The notes beneath the pieces were generated by a model, which saw nothing but the letters and a program-made list of their open reading frames with translations, was not told where the DNA came from and did not search any database. A stretch of DNA of 64,000 nucleotides from Alloacidobacterium sp. (lineage in GTDB: Bacteria > Acidobacteriota > Terriglobia > Terriglobales > Acidobacteriaceae). The DNA lies in NCBI GenBank assembly GCA_035547425.1, contig DASZUU010000050.1, positions 26,645-90,644 of the forward strand, in the 5' to 3' direction. Positions 8,739 to 27,169 of this stretch are shown here, one piece after another (position 1 is the first letter of the stretch; every line of letters begins with the position of its first letter). The translations under genes were made by a program, and so were the position numbers.

Positions 8739-11700
8739 CAGAATGCCTGTCCAATGCTGAAGAAAAAGTTAAAGTGTCCCGCCTGGCCGACATGCGGATT
8801 CTCTGTCGGATTTGTCGGGTTCGAATAATCGAAGATCACCGGATAAATCGGCGGATTCAGGTTGTAGCTGAAGTCAAGGCGCAGAGGCCCAATCGGCGTG
8901 TGATAACGCGCGCCGATGCCGACGGCATGAGAAAAATAATCGAAGCTGCAGGTTCCCGCGCCGCCCGTGCTCGAGCGTTGATGCGGCACCTCCTGATCGG
9001 CTGGATTCAGGTCTTTGCACGTGTCCCGATGCGGCTGCCGAACCCGGATAAAGCTTGGCCAGATCGAGGAAGCATTCTCAAAAACGTTGCCCATATCGTG
9101 AAAGAGGACAAAGCCAAGACTGTTGCCAACGTACGGCAAAACAGGATTGGGCATGCGCAGTTCCGTACTATTGATGAATGCTCCGGCGCCCCCGATAGGG
9201 AATCCCGTCTCTGAATCGCGCGGCCCGGCGCCGTTAATGCCGAAGCCGCGATGCGATTGCGCGCCGCCCGCATAGAGGCGTTCCGGCAGTGGAATCAGTT
9301 TTGCATCGCCCTCGCCATAAGAGCGCTCGGATGCGATCCGCGTGCTCCGAGCCAGCACCCAGTTCTTCATCTCGCCAAACCGGTAATAGCTCGCGTTCGT
9401 TCCGTCGATACGATTGAAATTTGCCTGGGAGCCGAAGTGTGAATCGGCCCACGATTCCTGAACGGTGTTATAAGTGCCGCTGGTCGCATCCAGCGGCGTC
9501 GGCGTCCGCGTATCGCGTATCCACGTAATGCCGGGGCCGCCGACGCGCACAGGCTGCGAAACCAGCGGAATTTCATCGGGCGCCACCTGCACCGTATTGG
9601 GGTCGACCTTAACGCGGCGATAGCTGAAGAGATAGATCAATGTATTCGGCTTGTTGACGTGATGCGTCACACGCAATGAGCCTTCCAAACGGGACGATGC
9701 ATAAGTCGTCACGTCCTGCGCATTGGTATAGCCGCCGGAAACAATCGCATCGAACTTGGGATTATCGAAGAGGTGCGGATTAGAAAAGATCAGCTGCACC
9801 CGTTGTTCGAGCGATCCATAAGTGGTGTTGAGAGATACGGATTTGTCCGTGCCTCGCAGGTTAATGCGCGATACGTTGAACAGCACGGCAGGCGTGACTC
9901 CGGTATTGCCGTTCGGATTGCAGTTGTAATCGCTTGGATTAATGCCCAGCTTAATAAGCGCCGTTGGATTCAGGCAGTTGCTCTGCGGGTTTCCCGTCTG
10001 CGCCTGGAAACCGAAGCCGTAACTGAGGTCCCAGCGCCGCGCTTCCGTAAATTGGACAAGAACATTTTTGCGCAGCTCATCGCCCTGGGGATTTTGTATC
10101 GCCGTATTGACCTGGTTAAAAAGCGTCAGGTCATAGAGCTTGCGCTGCGTTTCCAAAAGCGCGGTCTGGTTCAGCGGATCACCTGGATGAATCAGAACCC
10201 GGTCTTCGACAGTACTGGGCCGGGTATAGTGCAGCCCGGAGATCAAAACCCGATTCACGAATATCTGATCCCCTTCCGAAATGTTCATCGTGATATCGAT
10301 CAGGTTAGGGTCTTTCGAGGACGGCTGCTGCACCATGTCTACTGTGGCATTGCTGAATCCATGACTGAGATAGTAGGTCAGGATCGCATCGCGGTCCTGC
10401 GTGACATTCAGCGAAGAATAAGGCTGGCCGGATTGCGTATTCAGCAGCGGAGTCAAGGTGGAAAGCTGTACCTGCTTCTCGCCGTTAATCACATAGGCTC
10501 CGATACGCTGCTGCACGCCTTCTTCGATGACATAATTCACGCTGAGCTCGGCTACCTTGAGCTTTTGTCCGCCTGCGCTGTCCCTGTCTTTTACCTCCGG
10601 CGTAACTTTCACATTGCTGAAGCCGTTGCTCTGATAAAGAGCCGTAATGGAATTCACGTCCGCCTGCGCCAGCGCCTGACTATAGAGCCCGTGGCGATCT
10701 ACGACAGAAGCAGCCTGCACACTCAGCCGCTGCCGTATTAAAGTGCTGTCGAAATACTTGTTTCCCTGCACCGAGACGGCGACGACTTTATGCTTCATCC
10801 CCAGATCAACATGAAAGGTGATCAACGAGTGCTGCGGATCGTTCACTTTTTCTTCATGCGTCACCTTGACATTAAAGTACCCGTCGCGCTGGAAATAGTC
10901 TCGAATGCGCCGGTCCCCTTCATTCAACAGATCTTCATCTACCGTGCCCTCTTCATACACAGGGACAAGATTGCGTATTTTTCCTTTGCTCAAGGAGGCG
11001 CCGTTGACGTTGATCTGAACGATAGGGCCTCGTTGAGCCGAGAAGCCGTAATCCAGGTGATTCACCGGAGGCTGGTAATCGCGGGAATTCAGCTTGAGGC
11101 TCGCTTCCAGGTGGTCCTGCTTCTGATAATTCTTGCGCAGTCGAGAGATGGCGCGGCTTACCGTGTCGCGGTTGACCTTTGAATTCTCCTTCAGCTTCCC
11201 TTTTTTGCGAAACTGCTCGACGGTCATGCCGCTATCGCCCTGCACGGTCACATTGCCGACGCGAGCCTGTTTGCCCTGCTCAATCTGAAAGGCCACATTG
11301 ACCTGCGAGTTGGAATTGTCAATCGTGGTGCTGGCAAAAATTTTGACCTGGTAATAGCCGTTTTCTTCGAGCGTCTGTTGCAGCAGTTTTTGCGCCTGCA
11401 TCAGCTTGTTATCGCTGAAAACTGTTCCGGGATTCATGCGCGTGGAGCGCTCCAGCACGCCGGAGAGTCGCGTGCTCTTGATCCCTTCTACCGTAATGCG
11501 CCCGATGAAAAGATTCTGCACGCCGTTAAAAATAATGGTGACCGCATCGCCGTGGCGCAATCCTTCTACCGAGATTGTTTTGTAAAGGCCTGTTTCGTAA
11601 AGACGGCGCAGGCTTTCCCGCACCTTCATCGGATCGAGCGGCTGATGAGGCTGCAGTGCCAGCTGTTGCGGCAGCGGAGCCAGCCGGTCGGCATCGATGC

Positions 11701-20749: not shown

Positions 20750-20766
20750 ACAGCAGATACAAGAAA

Positions 20767-20800
20767 GCCCTGTAATCCCGATCGGATTACAGGGCCTTTT
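20767..20800. terminator. Intrinsic terminator between mtnA and the convergent cassette
   Basis: 12-bp perfect stem gccctgtaatcc/ggattacagggc followed by Ts. Confidence 0.8.
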
Positions 20801-20813
20801 GATTTTGAAGTTT

Positions 20814-21341
20814 TTAGAGGGCTTCTGCGAGTACCGGGAAGAGTAGGTACTGGTTGGTTTCGTAGAGAGCCAGCAGCCGTCGCGTCATCAGGTAATAGGA
20901 AGCAGCTGCCTGATGCACATAAAACGGAATCCGAAGCTGACCGCGGCGCAAGCGGGAATTCCAACGAACCCGGCGAATGGCGCGCTTCAGCAGAACAGAG
21001 TCATGGCGGATGCGCTCAGAAACGATAATTGCCTGATCGTAGTTCCAGTTCCGCACATATGCGGCGAGGGCGATCATCAGGTCAGCATTCTTTTCCATGC
21101 GACGCAGCCCTTCCGTGCCGCCTACGAGCCCCCAGATTTCATCTGGTTCCAGGCGAAGCTGATTCTTTTCCGGATTCAGGTGATCGAGCGCAACTAGCTC
21201 CAGACCACGCATGTGCATCGGCTCAATCGAGGTGACCAACGTTTGCCAATCTTTGGATAGCAGCTTCCGCGATCGAATTTGCGCATAGGCCAGCGCAACA
21301 ATCGCTACTACCCCAAACACACTCAGCGCAATATATCCCAT
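20814..21341 (-). CDS. Hypothetical protein with N-terminal TM anchor (cassette gene 3)
   Basis: 175 aa, hydrophobic residues ~3-20, helical basic C-terminal domain; starts 9 nt after the 7-TM gene stop. Confidence 0.8.
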   Translation of the reverse strand: MGYIALSVFGVVAIVALAYAQIRSRKLLSKDWQTLVTSIEPMHMRGLELVALDHLNPEKNQLRLEPDEIWGLVGGTEGLRRMEKNADLMIALAAYVRNWNYDQAIIVSERIRHDSVLLKRAIRRVRWNSRLRRGQLRIPFYVHQAAASYYLMTRRLLALYETNQYLLFPVLAEAL

Positions 21342-21350
21342 AGGCAGCCT

Positions 21351-22124
21351 TCAGTGCTTCTCAACCTTCTTAACGTGGCTCAATTCTGACTGCAACTGCT
21401 GATGCAGGTTATTTAGATACGCCTGCATATCAGGAGATAGTGTACGACGTTCCGGCTCCGGACGCCACAAAGAAATTATCCAATAAATGGTGACGAAAAG
21501 ATATGTGAAAGTTCGTAAATAATCGAGTGCTACACCGTGCCAACTAGCCCCAAAATGGCTATATGCTGCTTCTGCGAGTAAATCGACAGTAGACCATACC
21601 GCCCATCCTTGAGCGAGAAGCATAACGTAGCTCGTTGGAAATAAACCCAGTTGCGTCGAAACAACAAGCAGACAGGCACATAGCTCGACATTCAACATTG
21701 CCGAGAAAAGCGTTCCCTTCTCTATCCAGGAATCAAGGGAGTTGGAGAAAACAGGGTGAATAATATAGGCGATAGCAGCTGCAATCGCAGCGCCTGCTAT
21801 TCCAAACAGGATAAATCTGACTCTCGCCTCTTTAACCCAGGCACCGGCAGGTCTTAACGCTACTCTCGCCAATTCATAAACTACGCCAATTTGCAGCGCC
21901 AGATCCAGACATGATGCTGTCCAGTAAATTTGATTATATCGTGCAGCACTGCCATATTGATAAGCAATAAAAAGCAAAATCGTTCGTACAGCATTGAATC
22001 CAATGAACGATGTAAAAATCGGAAATAACCTCCACCGTCCCCTAAAAACAAGGACACATAGGAGGATCAAATGCTCCGCAAAGCCAGCCGCCCATATGAT
22101 TGATGCGGTGAGAGAAAGATTCAC
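21351..22124 (-). CDS. Hypothetical 7-TM membrane protein (cassette gene 2)
   Basis: 257 aa, seven hydrophobic segments, hydrophilic helical C-tail; AT-rich codon use. Confidence 0.85.
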   Translation of the reverse strand: MNLSLTASIIWAAGFAEHLILLCVLVFRGRWRLFPIFTSFIGFNAVRTILLFIAYQYGSAARYNQIYWTASCLDLALQIGVVYELARVALRPAGAWVKEARVRFILFGIAGAAIAAAIAYIIHPVFSNSLDSWIEKGTLFSAMLNVELCACLLVVSTQLGLFPTSYVMLLAQGWAVWSTVDLLAEAAYSHFGASWHGVALDYLRTFTYLFVTIYWIISLWRPEPERRTLSPDMQAYLNNLHQQLQSELSHVKKVEKH

Positions 22125-22177
22125 ATTACGATCTTACTCTTGAAAGTCAATCCATAAATTACAAGAATCGGAACTTG

Positions 22178-22435
22178 CTACCCGATCACTACCACTGACT
22201 GCTTCGGGCGAGGATCAGTACCGCTGATGCTGGCTACTACCACCGACTGCTTCGGGCGAGGATCAGTGCCGCTGATGCTGGCCGTCTGAGTCGTATTCTG
22301 AGGCTGAACCAGAACCATCGAAGTGGTGCTCTTCGGATGCATCTCACTATTTGGGGTCGAAGCAAAAGCCTGGTAAGAAACGGAAAAAACGAGGGTGGGC
22401 AAACCAAGGGACAGAACGCGGACCAAACGATTCAT
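22178..22435 (-). CDS. Secreted precursor peptide with two tandem 16-aa repeats (cassette gene 1)
   Basis: AAAGGAG SD, Sec-type signal ending A-F-A, then ASISGTDPRPKQSVVV x2. Confidence 0.8.
   Translation of the reverse strand: MNRLVRVLSLGLPTLVFSVSYQAFASTPNSEMHPKSTTSMVLVQPQNTTQTASISGTDPRPKQSVVVASISGTDPRPKQSVVVIG
22187..22282. repeat. Tandem repeat, 2 x 48 bp
   Basis: Units 22187-22234 and 22235-22282 match at 45/48 nt. Confidence 0.95.
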
Positions 22436-22882
22436 GACAAAATCTCCTTTAATAAAGCACTGCTCCTGACGAGCATCTGCTATAGCCTATGATGGGCGTG
22501 GAACTCCTACAAGCAATTCATGCATGTGAAATGCCAATTTTTTTTGAAGCCGAACCCTTTTATAAACAATAAGTTGTTGCACATCTGTACAAGTTTGGTT
22601 TAGACTCTACTTACATCTTTAGTAACTCATTGTGGTAACCTGTTGCTCCTAATGAAGTTATTTGAGTCATTCATTCCGGTAATATTTAGCCGGATGAAAC
22701 TTTTTTCCTATCCGGTGTTCTTGCCGACCGAACAAAAATTTTTTCTGCTCATCTGCTTTTTCAAAGCAAAATTTGCTCATCGAAGGAAGTTTCGTCCCGA
22801 TAGGCGAGAAGAAATTACGCAAGATTGGTATTTTTTCAAAGCCAAATGGACAAAATTTGTTTGTTTTGGAAGCGTTTCCCCT

Positions 22883-23179
22883 CTACTGAATCCAGCCGGC
22901 ATACGGATACAGGAGCAGAAAGAAAATCATCGCCAGCGCCATCACGTCCATATAAAGCAGCAGCAAAACCCCGCCGTGATAAAAACTCCAGCGCATCTGC
23001 AGGCAGCGGCTTGTATCGTAGGTCCCGTAAAGCGCAAGAATGGTAGGAACCAGCAGGAACGCTGAAGGCCGCGCATTCGGAAACCCGGAAAGGACAAATG
23101 CCAGAATCAGGCTGCCGAGGACTAAAATGGTTCCGCGCAACAGCGACCGCGCTCGAAAATTGAAAACTGCCGGGGGCAT
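22883..23179 (-). CDS. Small 3-TM hypothetical membrane protein
   Basis: 98 aa, strongly hydrophobic with three helices. Confidence 0.7.
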
Positions 23180-24267: not shown

Positions 24268-24305
24268 TTGACAGCCTCTATAGGCATAGATTATCTATGC
24301 CTATA
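24268..24305 (+). promoter_or_regulatory. -35 hexamer plus perfect palindromic operator upstream of padR
   Basis: TTGACA at 24268-24273; tataggcataga-tta-tctatgcctata at 24279-24305. Confidence 0.7.
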
Positions 24306-24311
24306 ACTCAT

Positions 24312-24638
24312 ATGCCTAAGACAGACATGCCTCCCGGCGCTCTCACTCTTCTCATCCTTCGCGTTCTTCAATCCGGTTCCCTGCACGGATACGCCATCGC
24401 GCAGCGCATTCACGTGCTCTCAAGCGAAGTCCTCGCGGTGGAAGAAGGCTCCCTCTATCCGGCGCTGCAAAAGATGCTGCTGAAAGGCTGGGTCACGGCG
24501 GAATGGGGTATTTCGGGAACCAACCGCAAGGTCCGCTTCTATCGCCTGACAGCCGCAGGCCGCAAGCAGCTTCAGTCTGAAGTCGCCAATTACGATCGCG
24601 TAACCGAAGCGATTCAAACCATCCTGCGCACCGCCTGA
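24312..24638 (+). CDS. PadR family transcriptional regulator
   Basis: LHGYAIAQRI, EEGSLYPAL, KFYRLT-like VRFYRLTAAGRKQL. Confidence 0.93.
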   Translation: MPKTDMPPGALTLLILRVLQSGSLHGYAIAQRIHVLSSEVLAVEEGSLYPALQKMLLKGWVTAEWGISGTNRKVRFYRLTAAGRKQLQSEVANYDRVTEAIQTILRTA

Positions 24639-24649
24639 GGAGGTTCCTT

Positions 24650-27169
24650 ATGGGTGAATTTTTTCGTCGGCTTCGCTATCTTCTGCAGCGCAACCGCTTT
24701 GATCGTGAATTGGAAAATGAAATGGAATTCCACCGCGAGATGGCCGCGCGCGAGGGGCGCAAAAACTTCGGCAACGATCTGCGGCTCCGCGAGCAATCGC
24801 GCGAGGCATGGGGCTGGGTGTGGATCGATCGCCTGCTACAGGACCTGCGCTACGCCGCGCGCATCCTGTGGCGCTCGCCGGGGTTCACCCTGACGGCAAT
24901 CTTTGTACTGGCTCTCGGCATCGGCGTCAGCGTAACAGCATTCAGTCTGCTCAATATTTTAGTGCTGAAGATGCTGCCGGTGCGCGATCCCGCATCGATT
25001 GTTCGCCTGCAGCGTCGTTCCCCGGAAATCACGACTGCCGATACGCCGTACCTTTCGTTTCTCTTCTATAAAAATCACACAAAAACGCTCTCCGCCATGT
25101 TCGCCGTCATGGGATCGCCTTCCATGGAGTTGAATGATGACCTGCAACCTGTATCCGTCAACTATGTAACCTCAAACTACTTCACGGAATTAGGTACGCA
25201 GGTTGCTGCCGGGCGTCTCTTCCTCTCCTCACAGGACGAATCTGCAAATGCGCCACCCATCGTTGTGCTGAGTCATGGGCTATGGGAACGCCGTTTTAAC
25301 AGCGATCCCGGCATTGTCGGAAAGGTCATCCGGTTGAACGGCAAACCGGCGACGGTGATCGGTGTCGCAGCAAAAAATTACGCCAGCAATTCCGGCCAAT
25401 ACCCAGACCTGTGGTTGCCGATCACACAGGAATCCTATTTCGTAGAAGGAAGCAACGCGATCACGGATGCCGTAGGCGGAGCGGCTGTTCGCATGTGGGG
25501 ACGGCTTGCGCCAGGCATCACCGCCAAAGTAGCGGAGCAGGAGTTGCTCACGCTCACTAACGAATTGCGCAAGCAGTATCCAAAGCTCATCTGGGACAAG
25601 GAATATATCCGCAGCGATCCCGGCAGTCACCTCCTGGTGCTGGAGCCGCAGATGATCCCTGTCTTCAGTATGATCGGCGCTCTCGTGCTGCTCATCTTTA
25701 TCGTCGCCTGCGCCAATCTCGGCGGATTGATGATGGCGCGTGGCGTTGCCCGCGAGCATGAAATCAGCATCCGGCTCGCTATCGGAGCCGGCAGGATGCG
25801 CATCTTCAGGCAGTTGTTTACCGAGAGCCTGCTGCTGGCGATGCTTGCTTCCGTCATCGGCCTGACGTTGAGCTATACCGGCCTGCGCATCATGAACGCC
25901 ATCTACGGAGACGACAAATCCACCTGGATGACCTTTGCGCCCGACTGGCGCGTGATGTTGTTTACCGTGGGCATGGCTCTTTTTGCAGCTCTTCTTTTCG
26001 GACTGGCTCCCGCATTGCAAATGGCGAGGCAGCGCCAGCGCAAAACAATCGCGCGGCAAATTCTGGTGAGCATTCAAATCACTGCCAGTTGCATCCTGCT
26101 CATCGTATCCGGCCTGCTGGTGCACGCAGTACATCACACTCTGTATTCCGACCCGGGCTTCGGCTACGAGCAGGTGGTTTCCATTACACCCGGACTCGAT
26201 AGTCATGGATATAAACCTGAAGCGGCGCGCGCCTATATAGAACAGCTACGGACGCGGCTGCTTGGCCTTCCCGGAGTGACCTCCGTAGCTTTGTCAAAAG
26301 AATCGCTGTTAGGAAATGGCTTTACCTCCTACATCACGACGGATATAGGAGGCCATCCCGTCAATATTTATCCCAACTCGGTCGATCCGCCTTTCTTCAA
26401 AACAATGGGAATTCCACTGCTTCGTGGACGCAATCTGTTGCCGGGTGAAAAACAGGCGGTCATTGTCAGCGAATCGCTGGCACGTCGCCAGTGGCCGGGT
26501 CAGGAGGCATTAGGAAAGAAATTCGGAGATAACAAGGACGTTGTCGTTGGCATAGCGGGAAATGCCCGCATCAAAGCCTTGAATGATGGCGAAGCTGTTG
26601 AGGCTTACTGGGCGGCACAACCGGAAGACCTCGCAGCCATGAGCGTATTGGTAAAAACCGCCGGTGCTCCGGAAGGATTGGTTCCCGAGACGAAATCAAT
26701 CGTCAAGTCGCTTGACCCCAAGCTCTTCCCCTACATCTGGCTGCTGAAGACCGGCTTCCGCGACAGCACGCAGTTGCTGGAGAACACGGCTCTCGCAGCC
26801 ACCATTCTGGGATTACTGGCAACGCTGCTTGCCGCTGTAGGCATCCTGGGCTTGGTCACGTATGCAGTTTCACAGCGCAACAAGGAAATTGCCATTCGCA
26901 TTGCCCTCGGAGCCAAGCCGCAGCATGTGCTCTTCGCCATCTTGCGCCAGTTCGTGCTTCCCGTCGTAACGGGAGCGATTGCCGGAACAGCCGCCACGGC
27001 ATTCGTATCGCGATTCCTGCACAAAATTCTTTACGGCATCAGCAATCTCGACCCCGCCGGATACGCAGGCGGCATTGGCGTCCTGATGGTGATCGCTCTG
27101 ATTGCTGCTCTGCTTCCCGCCCGCCGCGCCCTGCGGGTCGATCCTGTCCGCGCCCTGCACGAAGAATAA
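24650..27169 (+). CDS. ADOP-type duplicated ABC permease (MacB/FtsX)
   Basis: DRELENEMEFH, LLQDLRYAARILWRSPGFT, IACANLGGL, REISIRLAIGA, QRNKEIAIRIALGA, PARRALRVDP; no ATPase adjacent. Confidence 0.92.
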   Translation: MGEFFRRLRYLLQRNRFDRELENEMEFHREMAAREGRKNFGNDLRLREQSREAWGWVWIDRLLQDLRYAARILWRSPGFTLTAIFVLALGIGVSVTAFSLLNILVLKMLPVRDPASIVRLQRRSPEITTADTPYLSFLFYKNHTKTLSAMFAVMGSPSMELNDDLQPVSVNYVTSNYFTELGTQVAAGRLFLSSQDESANAPPIVVLSHGLWERRFNSDPGIVGKVIRLNGKPATVIGVAAKNYASNSGQYPDLWLPITQESYFVEGSNAITDAVGGAAVRMWGRLAPGITAKVAEQELLTLTNELRKQYPKLIWDKEYIRSDPGSHLLVLEPQMIPVFSMIGALVLLIFIVACANLGGLMMARGVAREHEISIRLAIGAGRMRIFRQLFTESLLLAMLASVIGLTLSYTGLRIMNAIYGDDKSTWMTFAPDWRVMLFTVGMALFAALLFGLAPALQMARQRQRKTIARQILVSIQITASCILLIVSGLLVHAVHHTLYSDPGFGYEQVVSITPGLDSHGYKPEAARAYIEQLRTRLLGLPGVTSVALSKESLLGNGFTSYITTDIGGHPVNIYPNSVDPPFFKTMGIPLLRGRNLLPGEKQAVIVSESLARRQWPGQEALGKKFGDNKDVVVGIAGNARIKALNDGEAVEAYWAAQPEDLAAMSVLVKTAGAPEGLVPETKSIVKSLDPKLFPYIWLLKTGFRDSTQLLENTALAATILGLLATLLAAVGILGLVTYAVSQRNKEIAIRIALGAKPQHVLFAILRQFVLPVVTGAIAGTAATAFVSRFLHKILYGISNLDPAGYAGGIGVLMVIALIAALLPARRALRVDPVRALHEE

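What the first reader, a model, noticed from the sequence alone, without database searches (positions are those of the whole stretch)
22187..22282. Duplicated peptide core differs only at synonymous sites
Seen: the two 48-bp units differ at exactly three positions, all third codon positions and all silent (Val GTG/GTA, Ser TCA/TCG, Gly GGT/GGC). Inference: the duplication is old enough to have diverged, yet the 16-aa sequence is under purifying selection. This is what a multi-core precursor releasing several copies of a bioactive peptide would look like (as in fungal alpha-factor or multicore RiPPs). The PK/QS boundary and Pro-rich DPRP motif are candidate processing or recognition sites. Three changes is a small sample.
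Basis: partly seen in the sequence, partly recalled or inferred. Interest (0 to 1): 0.72.

Follow-up and report, generated by a model that had tools for sequence, protein, structure and literature searches.

The report
Repeated exported peptide beside 7TM protein
A soil Acidobacterium (genus Alloacidobacterium) encodes a small exported protein made of identical copies of a 16-residue proline-rich peptide, kept identical by selection while the DNA drifts; it always sits in front of two uncharacterised membrane proteins, which points to a peptide-plus-membrane-partner system of unknown function.

Summary
Window 22187-22282 (minus strand) is two 48-bp units differing at three third-codon, silent transitions. 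They lie in an 85-aa ORF (22178-22435) with a strong Shine-Dalgarno site and a Sec-type signal peptide.

The small sample generalises. Syntenic Alloacidobacterium orthologues carry 2-12 units around an invariant G[ST]DPRP core. Over 15 arrays, variable nucleotide columns by codon position are 22/26/149, with dS up to about 0.9-1.5 and dN 0.01-0.09 in arrays of three or more units.

The window's "two units" is probably a collapsed assembly. In four independent metagenomes, unit k-mers are 3-8x deeper than the flanks and contigs break inside the array.

The gene is the first of a three-gene cassette: peptide, a 257-aa 7TM protein and a 175-aa single-pass helical protein. All 32 homologues of the 7TM gene whose flanks I read, almost all in Acidobacteriaceae, have such a gene beside it. 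That gene encodes a signal peptide plus a Pro-rich (PxP) peptide, as in-gene repeats, tandem mini-genes or a single copy. No component matches Pfam, NCBIfam, PADLOC or PDB.

Best reading (about 0.55): a multi-copy precursor or presenter of a short peptide that partners the 7TM module, probably cut after the Ala at each junction. No RiPP maturase and no Kex2-like sites are present. Function is untested.

The parts
22178..22435 (-). 85-aa ORF (stop codon included): Sec signal peptide, 26-aa spacer, two 16-aa units, then IG. This is the precursor or presenter of the Pro-rich peptide.
   Evidence: Syntenic orthologues with 2-12 units. A phmmer search of 1.84 billion representative proteins finds only about 11 relatives, all with the same architecture.
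22444..22449 (-). Shine-Dalgarno site AAGGAG, 8 nt upstream of the ATG.
   Evidence: Read. All eight orthologous upstream regions keep AAGGAG or AGGAG 6-9 nt before the start codon.
22361..22435 (-). Signal peptide, aa 1-25: MNRLVRVLSLGLPTLVFSVSYQAFA. It has n, h and c regions; the predicted cut follows A-F-A.
   Evidence: Read. A (-3,-1) rule was applied by script. No dedicated signal-peptide predictor was available.
22283..22360 (-). Spacer, aa 26-51 (STPNSEMHPKSTTSMVLVQPQNTTQT). It is poorly conserved and absent in several orthologues.
22235..22282 (-). In the register suggested by orthologues, the unit is SISGTDPRPKQSVVVA, preceded by Ala.
22187..22234 (-). Repeat unit 2. It has the same peptide and three silent differences from unit 1.
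22166..22187 (-). Weak hairpin followed by a T-run, overlapping the stop codon. It could be a partial terminator or attenuator between the peptide gene and the 7TM gene.
   Evidence: Consensus scan only. Function not tested.
21351..22124 (-). p257: a 7-TM membrane protein with a C-terminal cytoplasmic helix, inferred N-out/C-in. It starts 54 nt after the peptide gene's stop.
   Evidence: AF2 gives pLDDT 82.5 and pTM 0.75, with helices 5-27, 35-57, 60-93, 96-121, 129-159, 166-191, 197-220 and 231-256. Foldseek finds only weak 7TM look-alikes (E >= 0.05, TM <= 0.46). No Pfam, NCBIfam, PADLOC or PDB-sequence match. It is always next to a Pro-rich signal-peptide gene.
20814..21341 (-). p175: an N-terminal TM helix plus an all-helical domain, inferred cytoplasmic. 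It starts 9 nt after p257.
   Evidence: AF2 gives pLDDT 86.4. Foldseek and PDB searches give nothing significant. It is paired with p257 in 19 of 20 loci from genomes of the order (Terriglobales).
20764..20798 (.). Strong bidirectional hairpin (15 pairs) that closes the cassette against the convergent mtnA gene.

Best explanation
The ORF encodes a Sec-exported mini-polyprotein. Its functional unit is a single peptide of about 16 residues, proline-rich, with an invariant G[ST]DPRP core followed by a short hydrophobic tail ending in Ala. The unit is repeated in tandem (2 in the window as assembled, probably 5 or more in the real genome, up to 12 in relatives) to raise the dose of one and the same peptide.

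The peptide is the cognate partner of the two co-encoded membrane proteins, as ligand, substrate or small subunit. These are a 7-TM protein with fast-evolving periplasmic loops (p257) and a single-pass protein with a cytoplasmic helical bundle (p175).

Proposed course of events:
1. Sec export and removal of the signal peptide.
2. Cleavage after the Ala at each unit junction (..h-x-A|..) by an enzyme with signal-peptidase-I-like specificity or by another envelope protease.
3. Binding of the peptide at the periplasmic face of p257, with p175 relaying to or acting on the cytoplasmic side.

What is shown: the gene, its selection pattern, the conserved cassette, and the repeated independent amplification of the peptide.

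What is inferred: cleavage, binding and the downstream effect.
For: 1. A real, translated gene. It has AAGGAG plus ATG and a signal peptide, both conserved in all orthologues.
2. Every residue of every unit is under purifying selection while silent sites drift.
   - Within-array dS is 0.2-0.87 against dN 0.01-0.07 in 9 Alloacidobacterium arrays.
   - Most unrelated-sequence arrays of the wider family show the same pattern. L082 has dS 1.55 and dN 0.04. In L075, two identical 10-aa units differ at 7 of 10 third positions.
   - Pooled variable columns by codon position are 22/26/149, chi-square p about 3e-35.
3. The functional unit is one short peptide.
   - Relatives carry it as a single copy (L068-L080).
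   - Others carry it as 3-4 tandem mini-genes, each a signal peptide plus a peptide of about 15-22 aa (L066, L067, L099).
   - Others carry it as in-gene arrays of 2-12.
4. The register is consistent.
   - In 6 proteins the predicted signal-peptidase cut (..AHA|GITG..) yields the same N-terminus as every ..VVA|GITG.. junction.
   - 65 of 68 units are preceded by Ala, with V/L/A/S/T/I at -3.
   - 12 of 14 proteins end in Ala.
5. Obligate genetic linkage.
   - All 32 p257 homologues whose flanks I read (20, 12) have an adjacent gene for a signal peptide plus a Pro-rich peptide. This includes a second, different cassette in this same genome (G000:C2, peptide NFGPGNGIPCPIGRGG x2).
   - 19 of the 20 loci also carry p175.
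6. p257 is a 7-helix bundle and evolves much faster within the genus (55-62% identity) than p175 (81-88%) or mtnA (about 88-90%). Its predicted periplasmic loops are its most variable parts, as expected if it tracks a fast-changing peptide.
Against: - No protease, kinase or transcription factor is recognisable in this cassette, so neither processing nor signal output has a candidate enzyme.
- The fold matches of p257 to rhodopsins and GPCRs are not significant (best E 0.05, TM <= 0.46).
- Variable outer loops are common in membrane proteins generally.
- The bacterium is presumably diderm, and no route for the peptide across the outer membrane is evident.
- The short hydrophobic stretch before each junction (VVVA) is far shorter than a signal-peptide h-region. 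Signal peptidase I itself may therefore not cut there.
- Units within one array are not independent observations for the Ala(-1) rule.
- No transcript or peptide data exist. The only RNA-like runs are of guessed type and give tiny contigs.
Confidence: 0.55

Rival explanations
1. It is an unprocessed structural or multivalent envelope protein. The repeat protein stays intact in the periplasm or on the surface as an extended Pro-rich (polyproline-II-like) rod or spacer. Alternatively it acts as a multivalent ligand that clusters several p257 molecules. Copy number sets its length or valency, not the peptide dose.
For: - Pro-rich tandem repeats with variable copy number (2-12) are typical of envelope and surface proteins.
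- No processing enzyme was found.
- The link to p257/p175 is equally compatible with an intact multivalent partner.
Against: - Single-copy forms and tandem mini-genes whose mature products are about 15-22 aa show that one unit suffices.
- Structural repeats usually tolerate substitutions, whereas here all 16-17 positions are held (dN/dS about 0.02-0.1).
- The repeat register is in phase with the signal-peptide cut and the stop codon.
- Unit length varies from 10 to 28 aa across the family with no shared hydrophobic periodicity.
Confidence: 0.2
2. It is a Sec-exported antimicrobial or toxic peptide (bacteriocin-like, reminiscent of PRP-motif proline-rich antimicrobial peptides), and p257 and p175 are its membrane immunity proteins. 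Amplification raises toxin dose.
For: - A small exported peptide lies directly upstream of membrane proteins of no known family.
- Peptide sequences differ strongly between genera and between paralogous cassettes in one genome.
- There are several cassettes per genome.
- The peptide has a PRP/PxP core.
Against: - The locus is vertically inherited at a fixed, syntenic place between housekeeping genes (mtnA, a CoA-transferase subunit) throughout the genus.
- There is no exporter, lysis gene or mobility gene nearby.
- The unit has net charge of only +1 and is not amphipathic.
- PADLOC and Pfam give no immunity-type hit, including no CPBP/Abi match.
Confidence: 0.12
3. It is a cis-acting regulatory leader: a SecM/VemP/MifM-like export-monitoring arrest peptide. 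Its signal peptide and Pro-containing motif would stall the ribosome and so control translation of the downstream membrane-protein genes.
For: - The architecture is a signal peptide plus PxP/PPP motifs directly upstream (45-55 nt) of a membrane-protein gene.
- A weak hairpin overlaps the stop codon.
- Many family members contain PPP or PPG.
Against: - Up to 12 copies serve no purpose for a single arrest site.
- The window's own unit (DPRPK) has no consecutive prolines.
- Selection covers all positions of the unit, not just a C-terminal arrest motif.
- Tandem mini-genes each have their own start and signal peptide.
- The downstream genes are not Sec or YidC components.
Confidence: 0.05
4. It is an assembly artefact or a non-coding tandem repeat that is open by chance.
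For: The window comes from a short-read MAG, and the array is mis-assembled in copy number.
Against: - The same locus exists in the complete genome of A. dinghuense, with 12 in-frame units.
- It also exists in at least 20 independent metagenomes.
- The codon-position bias of 22/26/149 cannot arise in non-coding DNA.
Confidence: 0.01

Closest known systems
Yeast alpha-factor precursor (MFalpha1) with its 7TM receptor Ste2, and fungal Kex2-processed repeat proteins (KEPs; PMC7329392)
   Same: A signal peptide is followed by tandem identical copies of a short peptide. The peptide works with a seven-helix membrane protein. Copy number varies between species.
   Different: - There is no homology.
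- There are no dibasic Kex2 sites or Ste13 dipeptides; the junctions are h-x-Ala.
- The organism is a bacterium using the Sec pathway.
- The 7TM gene lies in the same operon-like cassette.
- The 7TM fold match to GPCRs is not significant.
- There is no G-protein; a single-pass helical protein is present instead.
Multicore RiPP precursors (for example cyanobactin PatE and multi-core microviridins or graspetides; sponge multicore peptides, PMC10945851)
   Same: One gene holds several identical or near-identical cores separated by conserved junction residues.
   Different: - No maturase, RRE or leader peptide is present.
- The N-terminus is a Sec signal peptide.
- No modifiable residue pattern (Cys, or Ser/Thr-Cys) is conserved.
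- The neighbours are two membrane proteins without enzyme motifs.
Polyubiquitin genes (PMC10457151 discusses their evolution)
   Same: Head-to-tail units have identical amino-acid sequence and differ almost only at synonymous sites. The gene is a polyprotein whose unit is the functional product.
   Different: The sequence is unrelated, the units here are 16 aa against 76 aa, the protein is exported, and no processing protease is known.
Gram-positive peptide pheromone systems (Agr: AgrD/AgrB/AgrC, with the integral membrane protease MroQ maturing the peptide, PMC9388083; Phr/Rap)
   Same: A small precursor gene is encoded next to polytopic membrane proteins that process or sense it. Specificity groups diversify rapidly.
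   Different: - There is no histidine-kinase, AgrB, CPBP/Abi or RNPP domain here.
- The precursors here are tandem multi-copy.
- The host is diderm.
Insect apidaecin-type multipeptide precursors (proline-rich antimicrobial peptides with PRP motifs). This comparison rests on my own knowledge and was not tested.
   Same: One secreted precursor carries tandem copies of a short Pro-rich peptide containing P-R-P.
   Different: Those precursors are eukaryotic and the peptides strongly cationic, with dipeptidyl and dibasic processing sites. No antimicrobial activity is known here.

Membership tests
Multicore RiPP precursor | A dedicated modifying enzyme or RRE-containing maturase is encoded in the same cluster. 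| tested here: not met
   Pfam, NCBIfam and PADLOC scans of the four cassette ORFs give nothing. The flanking genes are mtnA, a CoA-transferase subunit, PadR and an ABC permease.
Multicore RiPP precursor | An N-terminal leader (not a Sec signal) guides the maturase. | tested here: not met
   The N-terminus has the n-h-c layout of a Sec signal peptide with an A-x-A site. This rests on a rule-based reading; no SignalP was available.
Multicore RiPP precursor | Several cores are separated by conserved recognition or cleavage sequences. | tested here: met
   There are 2-12 identical units with a conserved h-x-Ala junction.
Multicore RiPP precursor | The core is post-translationally modified. | not testable with these tools
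   This needs mass spectrometry.
Alpha-factor / Kex2-processed repeat proteins | A signal peptide is followed by tandem copies of one short peptide. | tested here: met
Alpha-factor / Kex2-processed repeat proteins | Dibasic (KR/RR) Kex2 sites lie between the units. | tested here: not met
   No dibasic pair occurs in any DPRP-family unit. The junction is ..V-V-A|[GSA]...
Alpha-factor / Kex2-processed repeat proteins | The cognate receptor is a GPCR (Ste2/Ste3). | tested here: inconclusive
   The adjacent p257 has 7 TM helices plus a C-terminal helix. However, the best Foldseek hits to rhodopsins and GPCRs have E >= 0.05 and TM <= 0.46, and there is no sequence similarity.
Export-monitoring arrest peptides (SecM, VemP, MifM, ApdA/ApdP) | The peptide lies directly upstream of a Sec, YidC or SecDF gene and carries one C-terminal arrest motif. 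| tested here: not met
   The downstream genes are p257 and p175, which are not Sec components. The motif occurs 2-12 times. The window's unit lacks consecutive prolines.
Agr-like or Phr-like bacterial peptide pheromone systems | An adjacent AgrB/AgrC, histidine kinase or RNPP receptor is present. | tested here: not met
   No such domains are found in p257 or p175. Neither fold shows a kinase or TPR domain.
PEP-CTERM / exosortase-type sorting signal (considered because distant relatives read ..GTDPEP plus a hydrophobic tail) | An exosortase with conserved Cys/Arg/His is present, and the C-terminal signal ends in a basic cluster. | tested here: not met
   p257 has no invariant Cys in 28 sequences and no exosortase Pfam hit. 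The tails end in ..G[LFA] without Arg or Lys.

The most novel reading that the evidence does not exclude
The cassette is a bacterial peptide-ligand / 7TM-receptor system, a prokaryotic counterpart by analogy of alpha-factor/Ste2. A Sec-exported polyprotein is cut at Ala junctions into many copies of a Pro-rich peptide. That peptide is sensed at the periplasmic face of a new family of seven-helix receptors, which signals through a single-pass helical partner. Several orthogonal peptide/receptor pairs coexist per genome and co-diversify across Acidobacteriaceae.
Probability: 0.3. Interest if true: 0.9.

Novelty: new variant of a known kind. Interest (0 to 1): 0.7.

Why it matters
Acidobacteriota are among the most abundant soil bacteria, and almost nothing is known about how they communicate or compete. 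This study finds a lineage-wide, vertically inherited cassette in which none of the three proteins belongs to a described family. Its small exported peptide has been amplified independently many times, by in-gene repeats and by gene duplication. Selection on the peptide sequence is so strict that units stay identical while nearly every silent site changes.

That polyubiquitin-like signature marks the unit peptide as the product that matters. It also gives a directly testable hypothesis with synthetic peptides: ligand, toxin or subunit of a new 7TM family.

There is a practical lesson too. Short-read MAGs collapse these arrays, so copy numbers in such windows should not be trusted.

Tried and rejected
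- Word-indexed homologue search with the 85-aa protein found only the protein itself. The exhaustive phmmer search and whole-genome searches were needed.
- Pfam, NCBIfam and PADLOC scans of all cassette proteins gave nothing. The only hits (holin E 0.07, TrbF E 0.11) are noise.
- Profile-versus-PDB sequence searches for p257 and p175 gave nothing.
- Foldseek against PDB found only non-significant generic 7TM and helical-bundle look-alikes.
- The search for related loci with the p175 alignment used patterns that were too specific and returned only the genus. It did supply organism names.
- Expression evidence was inconclusive. Runs of guessed RNA type hold only 78-219-nt contigs over the gene. 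These could equally reflect the high k-mer depth of the repeat in low-coverage DNA. No RNA runs were found for relatives.
- A regulator-like ORF lies upstream of three distant cassettes. It has no Pfam hit and no counterpart next to this cassette.
- Literature searches found no description of this cassette.
- A structural beta-solenoid or amyloid reading of the repeat was considered. It was dropped because single-unit and mini-gene forms exist and unit length is not conserved. I therefore spent the second structure prediction on p175 rather than on the repeat protein.
- An Asp-Pro / Asn-Pro self-cleavage idea (acid-labile bond) was considered. It was left aside because more distant family members lack D or N before the PxP (GIPCP, APPPTP, VPVPVPPP).

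Full report
THE OBSERVATION

On the minus strand, window 22178-22435 is an 85-aa ORF:
MNRLVRVLSLGLPTLVFSVSYQAFA|STPNSEMHPKSTTSMVLVQPQNTTQT|ASISGTDPRPKQSVVV|ASISGTDPRPKQSVVV|IG

The two 48-bp units (22235-22282 and 22187-22234) differ at three sites only: GGC/GGT, TCG/TCA and GTA/GTG. All three are third-codon transitions and all are silent. Taken alone this is a weak signal. P(3 of 3 silent) is 0.017-0.037, and the changes are also silent in one antisense frame. The coding frame is fixed by other evidence: AAGGAG 8 nt before the ATG (22444-22449), a classical n-h-c signal peptide ending A-F-A, and orthologues that keep both features.

THE WINDOW PROBABLY UNDERSTATES THE COPY NUMBER

A genuine two-unit array has no repeated 31-mer; the longest shared run is 23 nt. 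Four soil or rhizosphere DNA runs from four different studies disagree with that.
- The k=31 contigs stop at 22250/22253.
- Unit-internal unitigs are 3.2-7.7x deeper than the flanks.
- Further unit variants exist, including one lacking 3 nt at 22234.

Four of the five places shown from other public assemblies of this locus also begin inside the array; the fifth is noisy upstream of the last unit. Two same-genus assemblies are broken or N-filled at the same place. The MAG most likely collapsed an array of about five or more units.

ORTHOLOGUES TURN THREE SILENT CHANGES INTO A STRONG RESULT

The genome is an Alloacidobacterium (Acidobacteriaceae); names come. Seven same-genus genomes carry the gene at the same syntenic place. 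On the gene strand the order is: 98-aa membrane ORF, repeat gene, 257-aa ORF, 175-aa ORF. The block lies between mtnA and a CoA-transferase subunit.

These orthologues encode a signal peptide followed by 2-12 units of 15-19 aa around an invariant G[ST]DPRP. An example is A. dinghuense, with 12 x GITGSDPRPPKSSVVVA. An exhaustive phmmer search of 1.84 billion representative proteins finds only about 11 relatives, all with this architecture.

Within arrays the peptide is held constant while silent sites drift.
- In A. dinghuense, 15 of 17 third positions vary among 11 complete units, against 1 first and 1 second position (dS 0.87, dN 0.017).
- Nine arrays give dS 0.19-0.87 and dN 0.009-0.066. Much of the dN comes from the degenerate last unit.
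- Pooled over 15 arrays, variable columns by codon position are 22/26/149.
- No orthologue shows a frameshift or free divergence.

Between species the linker after the core changes (QSVVV, TSVVV, TGVVV, TGNGLV, SGGGKLV, PSSSV, GTIV). All units of one array carry the same version.

THE GENE BELONGS TO A WIDER CASSETTE

The 257-aa and 175-aa genes (p257 and p175) form a pair found in 33 of 151 sampled genomes of the order, all in Acidobacteriaceae. With the p257 profile, 18 of 301 genomes of the phylum match, nearly all in the same family and often with several copies per genome.

All 32 p257 homologues whose flanks I read have an adjacent small gene for a signal peptide plus a Pro-rich peptide with a PxP core (20, 12). 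The forms differ:
- In-gene arrays: GSDPMP x10, AVNRGPAVPVPVPPP x10, SPSAPQPIPPAGDSF x6, AAVPIGPVHLPPPSAM x6, AAVPMNPFPTGNI x5, LAMSPASPHPVPPPA x8.
- Three or four tandem mini-genes, each a signal peptide plus a short peptide such as GLCTAPPPTPHGLRK.
- A single motif followed by a roughly 20-residue hydrophobic tail (..SGGNPHPQVASVALSLGDYASIVISVFGL).

This genome itself holds a second cassette (G000:C2) whose peptide is NFGPGNGIPCPIGRGG x2. Most of these unrelated-sequence arrays again show dN far below dS; the weakest contrasts are in the youngest array (L089) and in two arrays of two or three units. So the peptide was amplified many times independently and by two different genetic routes. 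One unit is sufficient in many lineages.

THE PARTNERS

No component matches Pfam, NCBIfam, PADLOC or any PDB sequence. All database homologues are labelled "hypothetical protein".

p257: AlphaFold2 models it (pLDDT 82.5) as seven TM helices plus a C-terminal helix. By the positive-inside rule it is N-out/C-in; this is my inference. Foldseek returns only weak 7TM look-alikes such as rhodopsins and GPCRs (E >= 0.05, TM <= 0.46). That indicates generic topology, not homology.

p175: the model (pLDDT 86.4) is one TM helix plus an all-helical domain, with no significant structural relative.

Evolutionary rates: within the genus p257 is 55-62% identical, against 81-88% for p175 and about 88-90% for mtnA. 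The predicted periplasmic loops of p257 are its most variable segments and its cytoplasmic loops the most conserved. This fits a protein that tracks a fast-changing exported peptide, but it is not specific to that explanation.

REGISTER AND POSSIBLE PROCESSING

In six family members the repeats begin exactly at the predicted signal-peptidase site (..AHA|GITGSDPRP..). That N-terminus is identical to the one that a cut at each ..VVA|GITG.. junction would give.

Over 14 proteins and 68 units:
- The residue before a unit is Ala in 65.
- The -3 residue is V/L/A/S/T/I in 65.
- 12 of the 14 proteins end in Ala.

The unit is therefore best written x3-G-[ST]-D-P-R-P-...-h-h-A; in the window, SISGTDPRPKQSVVVA.

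The h-x-A| junction obeys the (-3,-1) rule of type I signal peptidase. Whether that enzyme or another envelope protease cuts there is inference. The hydrophobic stretch is much shorter than a signal-peptide h-region. There is precedent for integral membrane proteases maturing bacterial peptide signals (MroQ in the S. aureus agr pathway; abstract of PMC9388083).

INTERPRETATION

The best-supported reading (about 0.55) is a Sec-exported mini-polyprotein. It delivers many identical copies of a short Pro-rich peptide, which is the cognate partner of the p257/p175 membrane module. What that module does is unknown; it could sense, be protected from, or assemble with the peptide.

Rivals:
- An intact multivalent or structural Pro-rich envelope protein (0.2).
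- A bacteriocin-like peptide with two immunity proteins (0.12).
- A SecM/VemP-like arrest leader (0.05).
- An artefact (0.01, and only the copy number is artefactual).

COMPARISON WITH KNOWN SYSTEMS

It works most like fungal alpha-factor/KEP precursors with a 7TM receptor. Its evolutionary signature is that of polyubiquitin. It is not a member of either, nor of multicore RiPPs, Agr/Phr systems, arrest peptides or PEP-CTERM/exosortase systems; at least one defining feature failed in each case (see the membership table). I found no publication on the cassette.

Two earlier notes of this scan, on other Acidobacteria, describe the same kind of cassette. They agree with this report, but they are AI notes and not independent evidence.

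VERDICT

The "multi-core precursor" idea is supported in its general form: one short peptide, many copies. It is not supported as a RiPP or with the proposed processing sites. The wider finding is an undescribed peptide-7TM-1TM cassette of Acidobacteriaceae with untested function.

Noticed in passing
G000:C2:~9700-11560 (locus L065, about 1208-1441 of the upstream extract): The same genome holds a second, paralogous cassette. It has a signal peptide plus NFGPGNGIPCPIGRGG x2, then a p257 paralogue (41% identity) and a p175 paralogue (57%). The genome therefore carries two different peptide/7TM pairs. Genome G011 has the same pair.
   Followed up: partly
L066 (G065:C1) and L067 (G137:C43), upstream of p257: There are four tandem mini-genes, each encoding its own signal peptide plus a peptide of about 15 aa (GLCTAPPPTPHGLRK or GLCTAPPPTPTGLAGSK). 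This is amplification by gene duplication rather than by in-gene repeats. L099 has three such mini-genes downstream of its p257 (..MASDGGPIPCPPGRKCK).
   Followed up: partly
window 22883-23179 (-): A 98-aa ORF with about three hydrophobic helices is conserved at 78-84% identity upstream of the peptide gene in all Alloacidobacterium loci. It has no family match. It is separated from the peptide gene by an AT-rich gap of about 450 bp, and its start abuts the divergent CoA-transferase gene.
   Followed up: partly
L090, L094 and L097 (upstream of distant cassettes): Three distant cassettes share an upstream ORF with a conserved stretch (..DPGFDPxRTxxxxRMVExWG..YGYIGxxD..). It has no Pfam hit. It may correspond to the regulator that an earlier scan note (e1-968460) reported for such cassettes. 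No counterpart lies next to the cassette in this window.
   Followed up: partly
L103 (NCBI GCA_964414125.1, CAYPVM010000144.1), bases 1-110: Upstream of the last unit this assembly reads ..TSWSDPPPQQSPLPTISRPHPPPPQTLVVA. The stretch looks like degenerate or noisy repeat units. It could be an assembly error or truly divergent units.
   Followed up: no
window 22170-22290 (+ strand, frame 0): The antisense frame is also open through the repeat (TTTDCFGRGSVPLMLA x2), and the three differences are silent there too. It has no start codon or other gene signals. This is a reminder that silent differences alone do not identify the coding strand.
   Followed up: yes
window 24297-27169 (+): A PadR-family regulator gene is directly followed by an 839-aa MacB/FtsX-like permease of the kind that is expanded in Acidobacteria. 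It is not linked to the cassette in other genera.
   Followed up: no
P0013: A plant-type pectinesterase with an N-terminal array of VVVKGTEPRPKE.. units scored against the query (E 1e-4). This is a convergent Pro-rich repeat, not a relative.
   Followed up: no
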